DNA of 64,000 nucleotides from Candidatus Zixiibacteriota bacterium (GCA_050117845.1 JASFLY010000003.1:124949-188948); one strand, 5' to 3'; shown: positions 9,301 through 12,462, numbered from the stretch's first letter. Numbers and translations: made by a program. Notes: generated by a model from the letters alone, not told the origin.

Positions 9301-9789
9301 ATGGCCGATAAAAATACGAGCCCGGCGATGTTCGAGAGCCTATTTATGGCAGGCTTGCGTGCCACCGGGTTCGTCCTCGGCGCGCGACAGCTTAAGATGT
9401 ACGTTAAAAGCCTTGGAGAAGTCTTTATTAACGACTTACCAGAGCGCCTGGGGACGGAACGCTCCGCCGAGAGCGACGCCAAGGCGAACGTCGAAGCTTT
9501 CGCCAAGATCGAGGAAAAGACGGACGCTTACGAGGCGGGCCACGTTAGCATCGAGGACGCGGACGGAGGTTTCCGCGCGACGTTCTCGAGTTGCCCCTAT
9601 GCCGGCCCGTGTAGTGAAATACTGGGCGAACTTATCAAATCCGGCCAATTCACCAAGAAGAACCTCCCGTGCCTCAGGGCCGACATAACGTCGGCGCTGA
9701 TATCGGAGAGCACCGGCCAAAAAACCAAATACGAACTCACCCAATTCGCGCCCGGGTTCAAATGCGTCGGCGAAATCGAATTGCTCTAA
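9301..9789 (+). CDS. hypothetical Cys-containing protein, possibly degenerate V4R-like
   Basis: AAGGAGG RBS; conserved cysteines (SSCPYAGPCSEILG...PCLRAD...KCVGEIE); first gene of a tightly packed run. Confidence 0.55.
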   Translation: MADKNTSPAMFESLFMAGLRATGFVLGARQLKMYVKSLGEVFINDLPERLGTERSAESDAKANVEAFAKIEEKTDAYEAGHVSIEDADGGFRATFSSCPYAGPCSEILGELIKSGQFTKKNLPCLRADITSALISESTGQKTKYELTQFAPGFKCVGEIELL

Positions 9790-9807
9790 TGAAAGGGGTG
9801 TTACGAA

Positions 9808-10386
9808 ATGGCCGATCTATCCCAGATCAAAGAAACGTTCCTTGGAACCATAAAAGCCGACGCTGACAAATCGCGGCTCGAATTCGGTGGGACGGAAGTA
9901 TCGTTCCACTGCGATAAATTCAATACGCGTGTCGTCAAAGGACTGGAAGACGTCGTAGGCTTCGAGGACGCCCAGAAGCTGTTGGCACACCGGGCGGAAG
10001 TCACGCACATCGACTTCCTGAACAAGTTTTTCGTGGACGGCGCGGCCGCGGAGGCTTTCGGCGGGATGTCCCCCGAAGAGAAGCTGGCCGCGATTTTCGA
10101 GGTATATAAAGTGCTCGCGTACGGCTCGTTCAACGCGGACGGCGCCGGAGAAAACGGCGGGACCGTAAAGGCGCCGACGTCGTACGTGGCCGAAGGGTGG
10201 CTGGAGAACCTCGAGCGGTGGAACTGGACGTTACGCGACAATCCGGTTTGCCACGACGCCTGCGGCCAAATCGCCGCGGCCTTCTCGGTCGCCTTCGGAA
10301 AACCCGCTGACACCTATTCCGTTAAAGAAACGCAGTGTCGCTCCACCGGGGCCGACGCTTGCGAATTCGTCGTGGAGGTGAAGTAA
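9808..10386 (+). CDS. V4R (4-vinyl reductase-like) domain protein
   Basis: C-terminal VCHDACGQIAAAFSVAFGKP...ETQCRSTGADACEFVVE fits the V4R pattern C..G..AG...G...E..C...GD..C.F.V; stop TAA at 10384 is 1 nt from the next ATG. Confidence 0.65.
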   Translation: MADLSQIKETFLGTIKADADKSRLEFGGTEVSFHCDKFNTRVVKGLEDVVGFEDAQKLLAHRAEVTHIDFLNKFFVDGAAAEAFGGMSPEEKLAAIFEVYKVLAYGSFNADGAGENGGTVKAPTSYVAEGWLENLERWNWTLRDNPVCHDACGQIAAAFSVAFGKPADTYSVKETQCRSTGADACEFVVEVK

Positions 10387-10387
10387 C

Positions 10388-10999
10388 ATGGCAGTCGACC
10401 ATGCCAAGATTCGGGAAGGCGTCATGGGCCTGGGCCTCGTCGGAGCTGAGGACACCGGCCTGCTTCACACCTTCGGCGTCATACTCGCCAACAACCCCGT
10501 CGACTACCTGGTCGACCGGGAACTGGACTTCATATCGCTGTTAGGGGACTCGGCGCGGCCTCTGGCCGAAAAGGTCCTTATCGACGCCGCCCAGTGGTGT
10601 GCGAACGCTACCTTCGGCGGCATCATGGATTCCCAGGAGTGGGCCGGCCTCATCGAGCCGATGGTCAGCTCGACGGCCGACCGGCTGGAAGGCCTTATCG
10701 CGGTCACGAACGTTCTCGGATGGGGCCACATATCGAAATGGGACCTCGACGAGGATAAACAGGAGTTAACGCTCCAGGTGGACCACTCGTACTACGTCAA
10801 GAATTACCTCGACCGCCACGGCAAGTCTGAAGTCCCGATTTGCTACATGTGGACCGGCGTCGCCGGCGGTTACATGGACTTGCTCTTCGGTAAGAAAGTC
10901 CACGAGTTTGAGGGCAAAGAAATCAAGTGCGGTGCCATGGGCGACGACACTTGCATCTTCGAAGCCCGCCGTCTCAAGAAGAAATTCGCGATGACCTAA
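10388..10999 (+). CDS. V4R (4-vinyl reductase-like) domain protein
   Basis: C-terminal ICYMWTGVAGGYMDLLFGKK...EIKCGAMGDDTCIFEA fits the V4R pattern; translationally coupled to neighbours on both sides. Confidence 0.65.
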   Translation: MAVDHAKIREGVMGLGLVGAEDTGLLHTFGVILANNPVDYLVDRELDFISLLGDSARPLAEKVLIDAAQWCANATFGGIMDSQEWAGLIEPMVSSTADRLEGLIAVTNVLGWGHISKWDLDEDKQELTLQVDHSYYVKNYLDRHGKSEVPICYMWTGVAGGYMDLLFGKKVHEFEGKEIKCGAMGDDTCIFEARRLKKKFAMT

Positions 11000-11000
11000 A

Positions 11001-12266
11001 ATGGATACGGACCGTCTAATCGACAGGTCGGAATTCGGACCTTTGGCGGACTCGAGTCTGGTATATTTCGATTCCGCCGCGACGTCGCTTACGCCGAAGC
11101 GAGTCGTCGAAGCCACGGTTCGGTACTACCAGGAGGTGGGCGCGGCCGCAGGACGGAGCGCCCACCTTCCTGCCGTCCAGGCTACGGCCCTGGTGGATGA
11201 TGCCCGGGAAAGCGCCGCCGCGTTCTTTAATTGCCGCCCCGAGGAAGTCGTGTTCACGAAGAATTCCACGGACGGCATTAACCTCGTCGCCGCCGGTTTG
11301 CCGTGGAAAGCCGGAGATCGCGTCGTCGTGACGCTCTTCGAGCACCACGCCAACCTGCTACCCTGGATGAGACTACGCGACGAACGAGGTATAATCCTGG
11401 ACGTGGTACGGCCGCGGTCCGACGGTACCTTCACCGTCGACGATTTCGTCGAGCCGCTATCCCGACCCGGCGCGAAACTCGTGGCCTTCACCCACCGGTC
11501 AAACGTACTCGGAACGACGCTCCCCGCCGCCGAAATCGTGGTCGCGGCCCGCACAGTCGGCGCGCTCACGCTGGTGGACGGGGCACAGTCGGCGCCGCAC
11601 GAACCCATCGACCTCGATGAAATCGGTCCCGATTTCTTCGTCATGTCGGGCCACAAAGCACTGGGGCCGAAAGGCGCCGGCGTACTGGTCGTGCGGGAAC
11701 AGGCCTGGGACGAACTGGTGCCTTCGCGGCTCGGCGGCGGAATGATAACCGACGTTTCGTTGGACGAATTCCGTCCCGCCCGCCCCCCTATCTGTTACGA
11801 GGCGGGGACGTACGACGTTCCCAGCATACACGGCCTGGGCGAAGCTTTCAAAACGCTAACGGAATTGGATATGGGCCGCGTTGCCGCTCACGACCGATCG
11901 CTCGGTAAATACCTGTTCGACGGCATGCGCGCCGTTACCGGCATAAATTGCTACGGCCCGGCCGAAGGGCCCGGCCGCACCGGAACCTGCGCTTTCTCCA
12001 TCGAAGGATTATCCCCGCATCGCACCGCATCCCTCTACGACCGGCTCGGCGGTATAGCCGTCAGGTCCGGCCATCATTGTGCCCTGCCCCTCGCGACCGA
12101 ATTCCTGGGGCGCCGGGAAGGCACGGTTAGAGCCTCCCTTTACGTATACAACGACGCCGACGAAGTGGACCGTTTTCTGGAAGTGACGGAAAAAATCGCC
12201 GGCATGGCGCGTTCGTCGAGTCCTCCGCGCGCGGCCACGCGACAGGAGGCCAGCAACGATGTCTGA
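11001..12266 (+). CDS. class-V aminotransferase, cysteine desulfurase family (SufS/CsdA-like)
   Basis: PLP-lysine motif FVMSGHKALGPKGAGVL; C-terminal RSGHHCA active-site Cys loop; ATG 1 nt after the upstream stop. Confidence 0.8.
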   Translation: MDTDRLIDRSEFGPLADSSLVYFDSAATSLTPKRVVEATVRYYQEVGAAAGRSAHLPAVQATALVDDARESAAAFFNCRPEEVVFTKNSTDGINLVAAGLPWKAGDRVVVTLFEHHANLLPWMRLRDERGIILDVVRPRSDGTFTVDDFVEPLSRPGAKLVAFTHRSNVLGTTLPAAEIVVAARTVGALTLVDGAQSAPHEPIDLDEIGPDFFVMSGHKALGPKGAGVLVVREQAWDELVPSRLGGGMITDVSLDEFRPARPPICYEAGTYDVPSIHGLGEAFKTLTELDMGRVAAHDRSLGKYLFDGMRAVTGINCYGPAEGPGRTGTCAFSIEGLSPHRTASLYDRLGGIAVRSGHHCALPLATEFLGRREGTVRASLYVYNDADEVDRFLEVTEKIAGMARSSSPPRAATRQEASNDV

Positions 12267-12462
12267 CAAGTGCGAACTACTCGATACGTGTCCGTTCTTC
12301 CATCGTTGGAAGGGCAACACCGAGGAAGAAATACAAGGGTGGATTTCGGAATATTGCAACGACCTGGCGACGTCGGAGAAGTGCGCCCGTAAAATCGTAC
12401 GGGGGTCCACCGGCAAGGCGCCGGCTGATAATTTCTCCCCCACCGGAGAACTGCTCGACTAA
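12259..12462 (+). CDS. small Cys-rich protein (67 aa)
   Basis: AGGAGG RBS 9 nt upstream; start overlaps the desulfurase stop by 8 nt; four Cys (C5, C11, C33, C42). Confidence 0.45.
   Translation: MSDKCELLDTCPFFHRWKGNTEEEIQGWISEYCNDLATSEKCARKIVRGSTGKAPADNFSPTGELLD

What the first reader, a model, noticed from the sequence alone, without database searches (positions are those of the whole stretch)
9301..12462. Translationally coupled V4R / cysteine desulfurase / small Cys-protein operon
Stops and starts are separated by 0-1 nt or overlap (10386/10388, 10999/11001, 12259-12266). This links Cys-rich V4R domains to a PLP-dependent cysteine desulfurase-family enzyme and a four-Cys mini-protein, suggesting a sulfur or metal-cluster relay coupled to the GTPase switch.
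Basis: inference. Interest (0 to 1): 0.6.

Follow-up and report, generated by a model that had tools for sequence, protein, structure and literature searches.

The report
Conserved V4R–cysteine desulfurase signalling module
A cysteine desulfurase (an enzyme that strips sulfur from cysteine) and a small one-cysteine partner protein are always encoded next to three ligand-sensor-like V4R/Bet3-fold proteins, usually beside a Roadblock/small-GTPase switch, in bacteria from at least eight phyla; I found no description of this gene module in the searchable literature.

Summary
The junctions are TAA10384-6/ATG10388, TAA10997-9/ATG11001, and ATG12259 overlapping TGA12264-6.

**Enzyme.** The 421-aa protein is a group II (SufS/CsdA-type) cysteine desulfurase with every catalytic residue intact.

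**Conservation.** Its link to V4R genes is not a local accident. In all 33 assessable loci retrieved through the V4R gene alone, the order is p162–V4Ra–V4Rb–[Roadblock]–desulfurase–p106. These loci come from Chloroflexota, Caldisericota, Acidobacteriota, WOR-3, Bacteroidota, Myxococcota, KSB1 and Ca. Zymogenus.

- The V4R cysteines are mostly the canonical structural Zn site. Only V4Ra has an extra invariant His-Cys.
- The first gene (p162) is a third V4R/Bet3-fold protein. Its model's best match is Thorarchaeal TRAPPC3.
- The 4-Cys mini-protein occurs only in the window's close relatives.

**GTPase link.** It is frequent but variable. Roadblock is often fused to PATAN and receiver (REC) domains.

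**Best reading.** A dedicated desulfurase–acceptor pair serves a V4R heterotrimer wired to a Roadblock/MglA-like switch. The function is untested.

The parts
8481..8510 (+). sigma-70-like promoter candidate (TTGACT-18-TATAAT, TG-extended) upstream of the second Roadblock gene
   Evidence: 11/12 matches; a consensus match only
8805..9176 (+). Roadblock/LC7 (MglB-like) protein, 123 aa; 88% identical to the copy at 6631-7002
   Evidence: Pfam 73.5 bits; best PDB hit 7f8m
9301..9789 (+). p162: third V4R/Bet3(TRAPPC3)-fold protein with no Pfam hit and four invariant Cys (C98, C104, C124, C155)
9808..10386 (+). V4Ra: V4R-domain protein, 192 aa; Zn-site residues C148/E174/C177/C185 plus invariant H34-C35
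10388..10999 (+). V4Rb: V4R-domain protein, 203 aa, paralog of V4Ra; Zn-site residues C152/E178/C181/C189 align to MopR/PoxR
   Evidence: (hhalign 96%)
11001..12266 (+). Group II (SufS/CsdA-type) PLP-dependent cysteine desulfurase, 421 aa; SGHK lysine and RSGHHCALP catalytic Cys
12259..12462 (+). 67-aa four-Cys protein (invariant C5, C11, C33, C42, P61); lineage-specific insertion between the desulfurase and p106
   Evidence: 86 clusters; fused to MCPs and hybrid kinases; no Pfam or PDB match
12511..12831 (+). p106: TBP-like-fold protein with one invariant Cys (C20) in an invariant patch (Y22, D27, E29, F31); universal downstream partner of the desulfurase
13110..13940 (+). PATAN/DUF4388 protein, 276 aa
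   Evidence: 97 bits; PATAN-Roadblock and REC-PATAN-Roadblock fusions sit next to the module in other phyla
13956..14501 (+). MglA-family small GTPase, 181 aa (GDVGAGKT, TPGQ, NKQD)
   Evidence: best PDB hit T. thermophilus MglA 3t12
14583..14606 (+). strong intrinsic terminator-like hairpin (10 bp, 7 GC) followed by a T-run after the GTPase gene
6631..7002 (+). first Roadblock/LC7 gene; opens a second, simpler cassette
7078..7563 (+). p161: two-Cys sister family of p162
   Evidence: its own conserved module Robl-p161-small peptides-PATAN-GTPase is seen in L036
7701..8227 (+). three tandem 41-44-aa paralogous peptides with three invariant Cys (7701-7835, 7911-8045, 8102-8227)
3873..6236 (+). 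HTH-PAS x4-GAF sensor protein upstream; large PAS/GAF proteins also flank related loci

Best explanation
The window (a Candidatus Zixiibacteriota MAG) carries a conserved module of five core proteins. Three are V4R/Bet3-fold proteins (p162, V4Ra, V4Rb) that most likely form a hetero-oligomer. The fourth is a dedicated group II cysteine desulfurase. The fifth is p106, a TBP-fold protein that is translationally coupled to the desulfurase.

Proposed mechanism:
1. The desulfurase converts L-cysteine to alanine and forms a persulfide on its RSGHHC cysteine.
2. Like other group II enzymes, which need a partner (SufE, CsdE, SufU), it hands the sulfur to the invariant Cys20 of p106.
3. p106 delivers the sulfur to, or gates, the V4R complex. 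The candidate site there is the invariant His34-Cys35 of V4Ra; the other V4R cysteines hold a structural zinc.
4. The state of the V4R complex is coupled to a Roadblock(-PATAN-REC) platform and, where present, an MglA-family GTPase. The whole system would then be a sulfur/cysteine-dependent input to, or output of, a small-GTPase switch.

Shown: gene content, gene order, coupling, conservation, catalytic residues and folds. Inferred: complex formation, persulfide transfer, the sulfur's destination and the direction of signalling.
For: Conservation: the order p162-V4Ra-V4Rb-[Robl]-CSD-p106 (CSD = the desulfurase) is found in 16/16 assessable genome loci from at least 8 phyla and 17/17 assessable metagenome loci, all retrieved with V4Rb only. 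It is also seen in loci retrieved via the desulfurase.

Coupling: V4Ra->V4Rb spacing is -4..+2 nt in 43/43. CSD->p106 overlaps in 20/27. This matches E. coli csdA/csdE, which overlap, and sufS/sufE, which are adjacent.

Enzyme: the equivalents of SufS H123, N175, D200, Q203, S223, H225, K226, T278, R359, C364 and R379, plus the short type-II loop, are kept in every V4R-linked copy. Top PDB hits are all cysteine desulfurases. The nearest non-V4R relatives sit beside ThiI/PP-loop ATPase and FdhD genes, which are sulfur-trafficking contexts.

p106: C20, Y22, D27, E29 and F31 are invariant across phyla. The model is confident at pLDDT 96.

V4R proteins: p162 has the Bet3/V4R fold. V4Ra and V4Rb are paralogs. 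H34-C35 of V4Ra is invariant outside the Zn site.

Switch: Roadblock is adjacent or inserted in most loci, PATAN-Roadblock and REC-PATAN-Roadblock fusions occur, and MglA-like GTPases are nearby.
Against: There is no biochemical evidence. p106 has a TBP-like fold unlike any known sulfur acceptor (SufE, CsdE, SufU, TusA, rhodanese). The desulfurase scores below the NCBIfam SufS trusted cutoff (365.8 vs 475.1). In a crude NJ tree the V4R-linked enzymes are not resolved as one clade. A 55%-identical desulfurase (L011) has no V4R neighbours. Some loci have no Roadblock or GTPase within 8-10 kb (L001, L006, L014). Complex formation was not modelled. The direction of information flow (sensor or effector) is unknown.
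Confidence: 0.45

Rival explanations
1. Fe-S (or other metal-sulfur) cluster sensor. The desulfurase supplies sulfide to build or repair a cluster held by the four Cys of p162, by the 4-Cys mini-protein, or at a p106 dimer (Cys/Asp/Glu patch). This would make the V4R complex a redox/O2/NO sensor for the Roadblock-GTPase switch.
For: Four invariant Cys in p162 and in the 67-aa protein. The mini-domain is fused to chemoreceptors and histidine kinases, as sensor domains are. Dedicated desulfurases for single Fe-S clients exist (NifS; established knowledge). p106 has an invariant Cys-Asp-Glu surface patch.
Against: The conserved core contains no scaffold (IscU/SufU/SufBCD/NifU), ferredoxin or ATPase. 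The Cys positions of V4Ra/V4Rb align to the MopR/PoxR zinc site, and the four Cys of Thor-TRAPPC3 bind Zn (PMC10933270). The mini-protein is missing in most lineages.
Confidence: 0.2
2. Biosynthetic or carrier module. The V4R hetero-oligomer holds a hydrophobic small molecule in its cavity, as proposed for BchJ and as seen with Bet3-palmitate and PoxR-phenol. The desulfurase and p106 thiolate that molecule. Roadblock and the GTPase only regulate or localise the process.
For: V4R/Bet3-fold proteins bind hydrophobic ligands (PMC2253512, PMC10933270). The module stands alone among purine-biosynthesis genes in L001/L006. The closest relatives of the desulfurase serve thiolation pathways (ThiI, FdhD neighbours).
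Against: No adenylating, radical-SAM or other activating enzyme is conserved in the block, although sulfur insertion normally needs one. No biosynthetic genes recur around it. Its constant neighbours are signalling proteins (Roadblock, PATAN, REC, GTPase, PAS/GAF).
Confidence: 0.15
3. The PLP enzyme works mainly as a ligand-binding (cysteine-sensing) subunit rather than a sulfur donor. Occupancy by cysteine changes the complex and thereby Roadblock/GTPase activity, analogous to CysK-CymR in Bacillus or to the amino-acid sensors of the Rag-Ragulator system.
For: The enzyme is embedded in a signalling operon. Precedents exist for PLP enzymes moonlighting as sensors (established knowledge, not tested here).
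Against: Complete conservation of the catalytic Cys, the general base His and the Arg residues across phyla, together with a coupled partner carrying an invariant Cys, argues for real sulfur chemistry.
Confidence: 0.1
4. An ordinary housekeeping SufS that merely lies next to unrelated V4R genes.
For: It is SufS-like in sequence.
Against: It keeps the same order and coupling in 33/33 independent loci across at least 8 phyla. There are no sufBCD/sufE/sufU genes in the locus. It scores below the SufS equivalog cutoff.
Confidence: 0.03

Closest known systems
Two-component group II cysteine desulfurase systems (E. coli SufS-SufE, CsdA-CsdE; B. subtilis SufS-SufU)
   Same: The enzyme subfamily and all catalytic residues are the same. 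A small partner gene with a single essential-looking Cys lies immediately downstream, abutting or overlapping, as with csdA/csdE and sufS/sufE.
   Different: The partner p106 has a TBP-like fold, not a SufE/CsdE or IscU/SufU fold. There are no SufBCD or TcdA-type clients. The conserved neighbours are three V4R/Bet3-fold proteins and Roadblock. The enzyme is below the SufS trusted cutoff.
MglA/MglB-type switches and actinobacterial conservons (CvnA-D), including the known PATAN association
   Same: It has a Roadblock/LC7 protein, an MglA-family GTPase (TPGQ) and a PATAN/DUF4388 protein in one operon. The MglA/MglB-PATAN neighbourhood was noted before (PMC4316618).
   Different: There is no CvnA kinase or CvnC (DUF742). 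The literature searches, and PMC4316618 when queried for these terms, turned up no report of V4R proteins or a desulfurase in these neighbourhoods. Roadblock is fused to PATAN and REC in several phyla.
Eukaryotic/Asgard TRAPP core (Bet3/TRAPPC3, C5, C6 with longin-type subunits; a GEF for Rab1/Ypt1)
   Same: It combines three paralogous Bet3/V4R-fold proteins, a Roadblock (longin-related) protein and a small Ras-superfamily GTPase. The p162 model's best structural match is Thorarchaeota TRAPPC3, followed by fly TRAPPC5 and Bet3.
   Different: These are bacterial genes with the V4R-type Zn site. There is no evidence of GEF activity or a membrane role. TRAPP has no desulfurase or TBP-fold partner. 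Homology at the complex level is untested.
V4R sensor domains of XylR/DmpR/PoxR/MopR and archaeal MsvR
   Same: They share the Pfam V4R domain and the Cys-Glu-Cys-Cys zinc site.
   Different: Here the V4R proteins are stand-alone, with no AAA+ or HTH output, and occur as a fixed trio with a sulfur-mobilising enzyme.

Membership tests
Group II (SufS/CsdA-type) cysteine desulfurase | Full-length fold-type I Aminotran_5 domain with the PLP lysine in an S-x-H-K motif | tested here: met
   Pfam PF00266 at 365 bits over residues 21-392. The equivalent of K226, within SGHK, is conserved in all V4R-linked copies.
Group II (SufS/CsdA-type) cysteine desulfurase | Catalytic Cys in the R-x-G-H-H-C-A consensus on a short loop (no group I insertion) | tested here: met
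   RSGHHCALP is present, and the loop aligns without the 6-residue IscS insertion.
Group II (SufS/CsdA-type) cysteine desulfurase | Other active-site residues (SufS H123, N175, D200, Q203, S223, H225, T278, R359, R379) | tested here: met
   All are conserved in 19/19 V4R-linked enzymes aligned to E. coli SufS. H55 is Gly, as in the archaeal relatives.
SufS proper (TIGR01979 / suf operon) | Score above the NCBIfam trusted cutoff, and a sufBCD/sufE/sufU neighbourhood | tested here: not met
   365.8 bits against a cutoff of 475.1. No suf genes occur in the window locus or in related loci.
Group II (SufS/CsdA-type) cysteine desulfurase | L-cysteine desulfuration activity stimulated by an acceptor protein | not testable with these tools
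   Requires an enzyme assay.
V4R / Bet3 (TRAPPC3) fold superfamily | Pfam V4R above the gathering score, or a clear structural match to V4R/Bet3 structures | tested here: met
V4R / Bet3 (TRAPPC3) fold superfamily | Zinc site tethering the beta-sheet to a helix (Cys/Glu/Cys/Cys in MopR/PoxR; four Cys in Thor-TRAPPC3) | tested here: met
   Alignment to MopR/PoxR and invariance across phyla. Metal identity was not tested.
TRAPP complex (as a GEF assembly) | Bet3-family and longin-family subunits assemble and catalyse nucleotide exchange on a Rab-like GTPase | not testable with these tools
   Only gene co-occurrence and folds are shown.
Known sulfur acceptors (SufE/CsdE, SufU/IscU, TusA, rhodanese), tested for p106 | Characteristic fold of one of these families | tested here: not met
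Known sulfur acceptors (functional analogy), tested for p106 | Single invariant Cys, and a gene immediately downstream of and coupled to the desulfurase | tested here: met
   C20 is invariant in all phyla. The junction overlaps in 20/27 loci.
MglA/MglB (Roadblock-GTPase) switch | Roadblock/LC7 domain protein plus a small GTPase with the MglA-type T-x-x-G-Q G3 motif | tested here: met
   Robl_LC7 scores 69-73 bits. The GTPase has LFGTPGQ, and its best PDB hit is MglA 3t12.
Actinobacterial conservon (CvnA-D) | CvnA histidine-kinase-like sensor and CvnC (DUF742) alongside CvnB/CvnD | tested here: not met
   The locus has no HATPase or DUF742 protein; PATAN/DUF4388 is present instead.

The most novel reading that the evidence does not exclude
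The module is a bacterial counterpart of eukaryotic GTPase-regulatory platforms. A hetero-oligomer of three Bet3/TRAPPC3-fold proteins with a Roadblock dimer (TRAPP- or Ragulator-like) would control an MglA-family GTPase, and a PLP cysteine desulfurase with its TBP-fold partner would act as a built-in amino-acid/sulfur sensor that writes a persulfide onto the complex. That would be the first functional context for stand-alone V4R proteins. It would also be a prokaryotic precedent for metabolite-gated Roadblock/GTPase signalling and for Bet3-longin-GTPase assemblies outside Asgard archaea and eukaryotes.
Probability: 0.15. Interest if true: 0.9.

Novelty: new variant of a known kind. Interest (0 to 1): 0.65.

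Why it matters
- **A testable partner set for V4R.** Stand-alone V4R proteins were still described in 2013 as having 'no clear function' (PMC3791482), and later structural work suggests only ligand binding (PMC10933270), although they are the proposed ancestors of TRAPP Bet3 (PMC2253512). This module gives them a fixed set of partners that can be tested.
- **A possible new type of sulfur acceptor.** Group II desulfurases are defined by their dedicated acceptors. A TBP-fold acceptor would be a new type.
- **A handle on cognate partners.** The recurrent fusion or adjacency with Roadblock, PATAN, REC and MglA-like GTPases ties sulfur mobilisation to a small-GTPase switch in at least eight phyla. 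Work on Asgard archaea notes that small GTPase genes there are generally not in operons with Roadblock, longin or TRAPPC3 genes, which makes cognate partners hard to predict (PMC10933270). Here they share one operon.
- **Three families without annotation.** The p162/p161 Bet3-fold proteins, p106, and the 66-aa four-Cys domain found on chemoreceptors and kinases have no Pfam or NCBIfam model.

Tried and rejected
- **Exact-sequence look-up** of the window desulfurase found nothing. The organism was identified instead via a 100% match of p162 to a Ca. Zixiibacteriota MAG protein.
- **Profile-profile comparison** of p162 with V4Ra/V4Rb found no relationship. The relationship appeared only at the fold level.
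- **NJ phylogeny** of the desulfurases was too poorly resolved to show a monophyletic V4R-linked clade. I therefore do not claim a distinct subfamily.
- **Homology of the 67-aa protein** to the three 41-44-aa peptides, or to known Zn/Fe-S motifs, has no support.
- **Rfam scan** of the whole window gave no hits, so nothing suggests a riboswitch or other RNA in the 570-nt spacer before Roadblock-2.
- **The afdb50 fold library** was unavailable.
- **'Cys-rich V4R proteins as general persulfide acceptors'** was rejected, because their cysteines map to the known Zn site.
- **'The mini-protein is the core acceptor'** was rejected, because most lineages lack it.
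Full report
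**1. What is in the sequence**

The + strand between 6.6 and 14.6 kb holds a run of co-directional genes:

| Coordinates | Product |
|---|---|
| 6631-7002 | Roadblock/LC7 |
| 7078-7563 | p161 |
| 7701-8227 | three 41-44-aa Cys peptides |
| 8805-9176 | second Roadblock, 88% identical to the first |
| 9301-9789 | p162 |
| 9808-10386 | V4Ra (Pfam V4R) |
| 10388-10999 | V4Rb (Pfam V4R) |
| 11001-12266 | Aminotran_5 enzyme |
| 12259-12462 | 67-aa four-Cys protein |
| 12511-12831 | p106 |
| 13110-13940 | PATAN/DUF4388 |
| 13956-14501 | small GTPase |

A good sigma-70-like site lies at 8481-8510, and a strong terminator-like hairpin lies at 14583-14606. Together they frame a plausible nine-gene transcription unit. 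A 100% match of p162 to an NCBI protein places the window in a Candidatus Zixiibacteriota MAG.

**2. The enzyme**

The 421-aa protein is a group II cysteine desulfurase by every sequence test available.
- Its best NCBIfam model is TIGR01979 sufS (365.8 bits), ahead of CsdA, selenocysteine lyase, NifS/IscS and EgtE.
- The 44 best PDB matches are cysteine desulfurases of the SufS/CsdA type or close homologues. The top match is 5b7s.
- When aligned with E. coli SufS, CsdA and IscS fetched for the purpose, all V4R-linked enzymes keep H123, N175, D200, Q203, S223, H225, K226, T278, R359, C364 and R379, along with the short type-II Cys loop.
- It is not a SufS equivalog. It scores below the trusted cutoff of 475.1, and no suf genes accompany it.
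- Its nearest relatives outside this system are an archaeal-type clade at 45-47% identity. Both members examined (P0061, P0089) are encoded next to a ThiI or PP-loop ATPase gene and an FdhD gene, which are sulfur-trafficking contexts.

That criterion is not met.

**3. The linkage is conserved**

Close homologues of the enzyme (55-75% identity) lie in the same block: p162-V4R-V4R-CSD-(small)-p106, where CSD is the desulfurase.

To avoid circularity, I searched genome and metagenome collections with the V4Rb alignment alone. I then annotated the loci with my own HMMs. Every locus whose contig continues past V4Rb has the desulfurase next, sometimes with a Roadblock gene in between, and p106 follows it. 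That is 16/16 genome loci and 17/17 metagenome loci.

The genome loci come from Anaerolineae, Ardenticatenia, Ornatilinea, Ca. Zymogenus, WOR-3, Solibacteraceae, several Caldisericota, Cytophagia, Myxococcota and KSB1.

The only V4R trio without a full enzyme is a tandem duplicate in L008, which retains a desulfurase fragment.

Spacing analysis shows two universally tight junctions:
- V4Ra->V4Rb is -4 to +2 nt in 43/43 loci.
- CSD->p106 overlaps in 20/27 loci, usually as ATGA.

In E. coli, csdA/csdE overlap by one base and sufS/sufE are 12 nt apart.

**4. The other proteins**

*V4Ra and V4Rb.* They are paralogs (hhalign 96%). Their conserved Cys/Glu/Cys/Cys align with the zinc ligands of MopR/PoxR. 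The 'Cys-richness' is thus mainly a structural metal site. The exception is an invariant His34-Cys35 in V4Ra. It is lost only in the degenerate L008 duplicate.

*The 67-aa protein.* It occurs only in the window's near relatives (L001-L007, L041). It belongs to a family of 86 clusters at 50% identity with invariant C5, C11, C33, C42 and P61. The domain is also found at the C-terminus of methyl-accepting chemotaxis proteins and hybrid histidine kinases. The family has no Pfam or PDB match.

**5. The switch**

The GTPase has GDVGAGKT, TPGQ and NKQD motifs and is closest to T. thermophilus MglA.

A Roadblock gene takes one of three positions:
- upstream of p162 (window, Chloroflexota, WOR-3);
- between V4Rb and the desulfurase (Caldisericota, Solibacteraceae);
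- after p106 (Cytophagia, KSB1).

In Chloroflexota, WOR-3 and related metagenome loci, the upstream Roadblock is fused as PATAN-Roadblock or REC-PATAN-Roadblock. This shows by domain fusion that PATAN and Roadblock act together and can receive phosphorelay input.

GTPase genes are nearby in many loci. They are absent within 8-10 kb in L001, L006 and L014. The GTPase link is therefore frequent but not obligatory.

**6. A second cassette**

The p161 gene is a two-Cys sister of p162. Elsewhere it forms its own module, Roadblock-p161-one or two 42-45-aa three-Cys peptides-PATAN-GTPase (L036; peptide alignment).

The window therefore stacks two 'Roadblock + Bet3-fold protein + small Cys protein' cassettes in front of one PATAN-GTPase pair.

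**7. Interpretation**

What is shown: a real, ancient and widely dispersed five-gene module, with an intact desulfurase, three V4R/Bet3-fold proteins and a one-Cys TBP-fold partner, habitually wired to Roadblock/PATAN/REC/MglA-like proteins.

The mechanism is inferred, at confidence 0.45. The desulfurase would load a persulfide onto p106 Cys20, by analogy with group II enzymes that depend on SufE, CsdE or SufU. The sulfur would then go to, or control, the V4R hetero-oligomer, with V4Ra His-Cys as the candidate site. The state of that complex would be coupled to the Roadblock platform and the GTPase.

The rival explanations, in decreasing order of confidence, are:
- an Fe-S or metal-sulfur sensor;
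- thiolation of a V4R-bound small molecule;
- a non-catalytic cysteine sensor;
- a coincidental housekeeping SufS, which the census excludes.

Whether the module is the sensor or the effector of the switch cannot be decided. REC-PATAN-Roadblock fusions suggest it may be downstream of a phosphorelay in some phyla.

**8. Novelty**

Full-text searches gave the following results.
- No paper combines V4R with cysteine desulfurase.
- No paper combines Roadblock with DUF4388.
- The V4R/Roadblock/GTPase and V4R/MglA searches returned five papers in all (four listed). The only one combining these components in its title or abstract is the Asgard study PMC10933270. It states that small GTPase genes there are generally not in operons with Roadblock, longin or TRAPPC3 genes, which makes partners hard to assign. 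PMC3791482 mentions V4R only as the Bet3 homologue. The two other listed papers were not opened.
- The prokaryotic small-GTPase survey (PMC4316618) reports only PATAN near MglA/MglB.
- The Bet3-V4R paper (PMC2253512) gives no gene context.

Within that library the module is undescribed.

I class it as a new variant of known kinds, namely a desulfurase-acceptor pair and a Roadblock/MglA switch. There is a minority chance (about 0.15) that it is a bacterial TRAPP/Ragulator-like metabolite-gated GTPase regulator.

Noticed in passing
window 7701-7835, 7911-8045, 8102-8227 (+): Three tandem paralogous ORFs of 41-44 aa with three invariant Cys (DCK[WY]A...WC[DEK]K...C..[YF]), each with its own RBS-like site, directly after Roadblock-1 and p161. 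Homologous peptides follow p161-family genes in L036 and L037. They could be small metal- or redox-binding partners or precursor peptides.
   Followed up: partly
window 7078-7563 (+); L036 6541-9371: The p161 family (two Cys) is a sister of p162. It has its own compact module, Roadblock-p161-small peptides-PATAN-GTPase, so the window stacks two sensor-like cassettes in front of a single PATAN-GTPase pair.
   Followed up: partly
window 12259-12462 (+); proteins P0213, P0220, P0241, P0252, P0183, P0244: The 67-aa four-Cys protein represents an unannotated ~66-aa domain family (86 clusters). The domain is also fused to the C-terminus of methyl-accepting chemotaxis proteins and hybrid histidine kinase/response regulators, so it is probably a signalling sensor domain.
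   Followed up: partly
L017 7730-8890; L046 4712-5824; L012 8057-8782: REC-PATAN(DUF4388)-Roadblock and PATAN-Roadblock fusion proteins lie immediately upstream of the V4R-desulfurase block in WOR-3, Chloroflexota and related metagenome contigs.
   Followed up: yes
L008 3113-9616: Tandem duplication of Roadblock-p167-V4R-V4R. The first copy is followed only by a desulfurase fragment (5418-5594) and has lost the V4Ra His-Cys cysteine (HG).
   Followed up: partly
L012 12350-12916: In an Anaerolineae MAG, a fourth V4R protein (XylR_N + V4R, with no AAA+ or HTH domain) follows p106.
   Followed up: no
window 8228-8804: About 570 nt of lower-GC, apparently non-coding DNA between the peptide genes and Roadblock-2. 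It contains the best promoter-like site in the region. It has no Rfam match.
   Followed up: partly
window 17979-22958 (-): A 1659-aa multidomain regulator: Ser/Thr protein kinase, AAA_16, TPR/MalT-like, GAF, sigma-54 activator and HTH_8. A WYL/WCX regulator lies nearby at 23837-24829 (+).
   Followed up: no
window 3004-3543 (-): A 179-aa ORF with a sub-threshold Roadblock/LC7 match (22.6 bits against a cutoff of 23), divergently oriented upstream of the PAS/GAF gene. It may be a further Roadblock-like protein.
   Followed up: no
window 25168-34656 (+): A very long ORF (3162 aa) that I did not examine.
   Followed up: no
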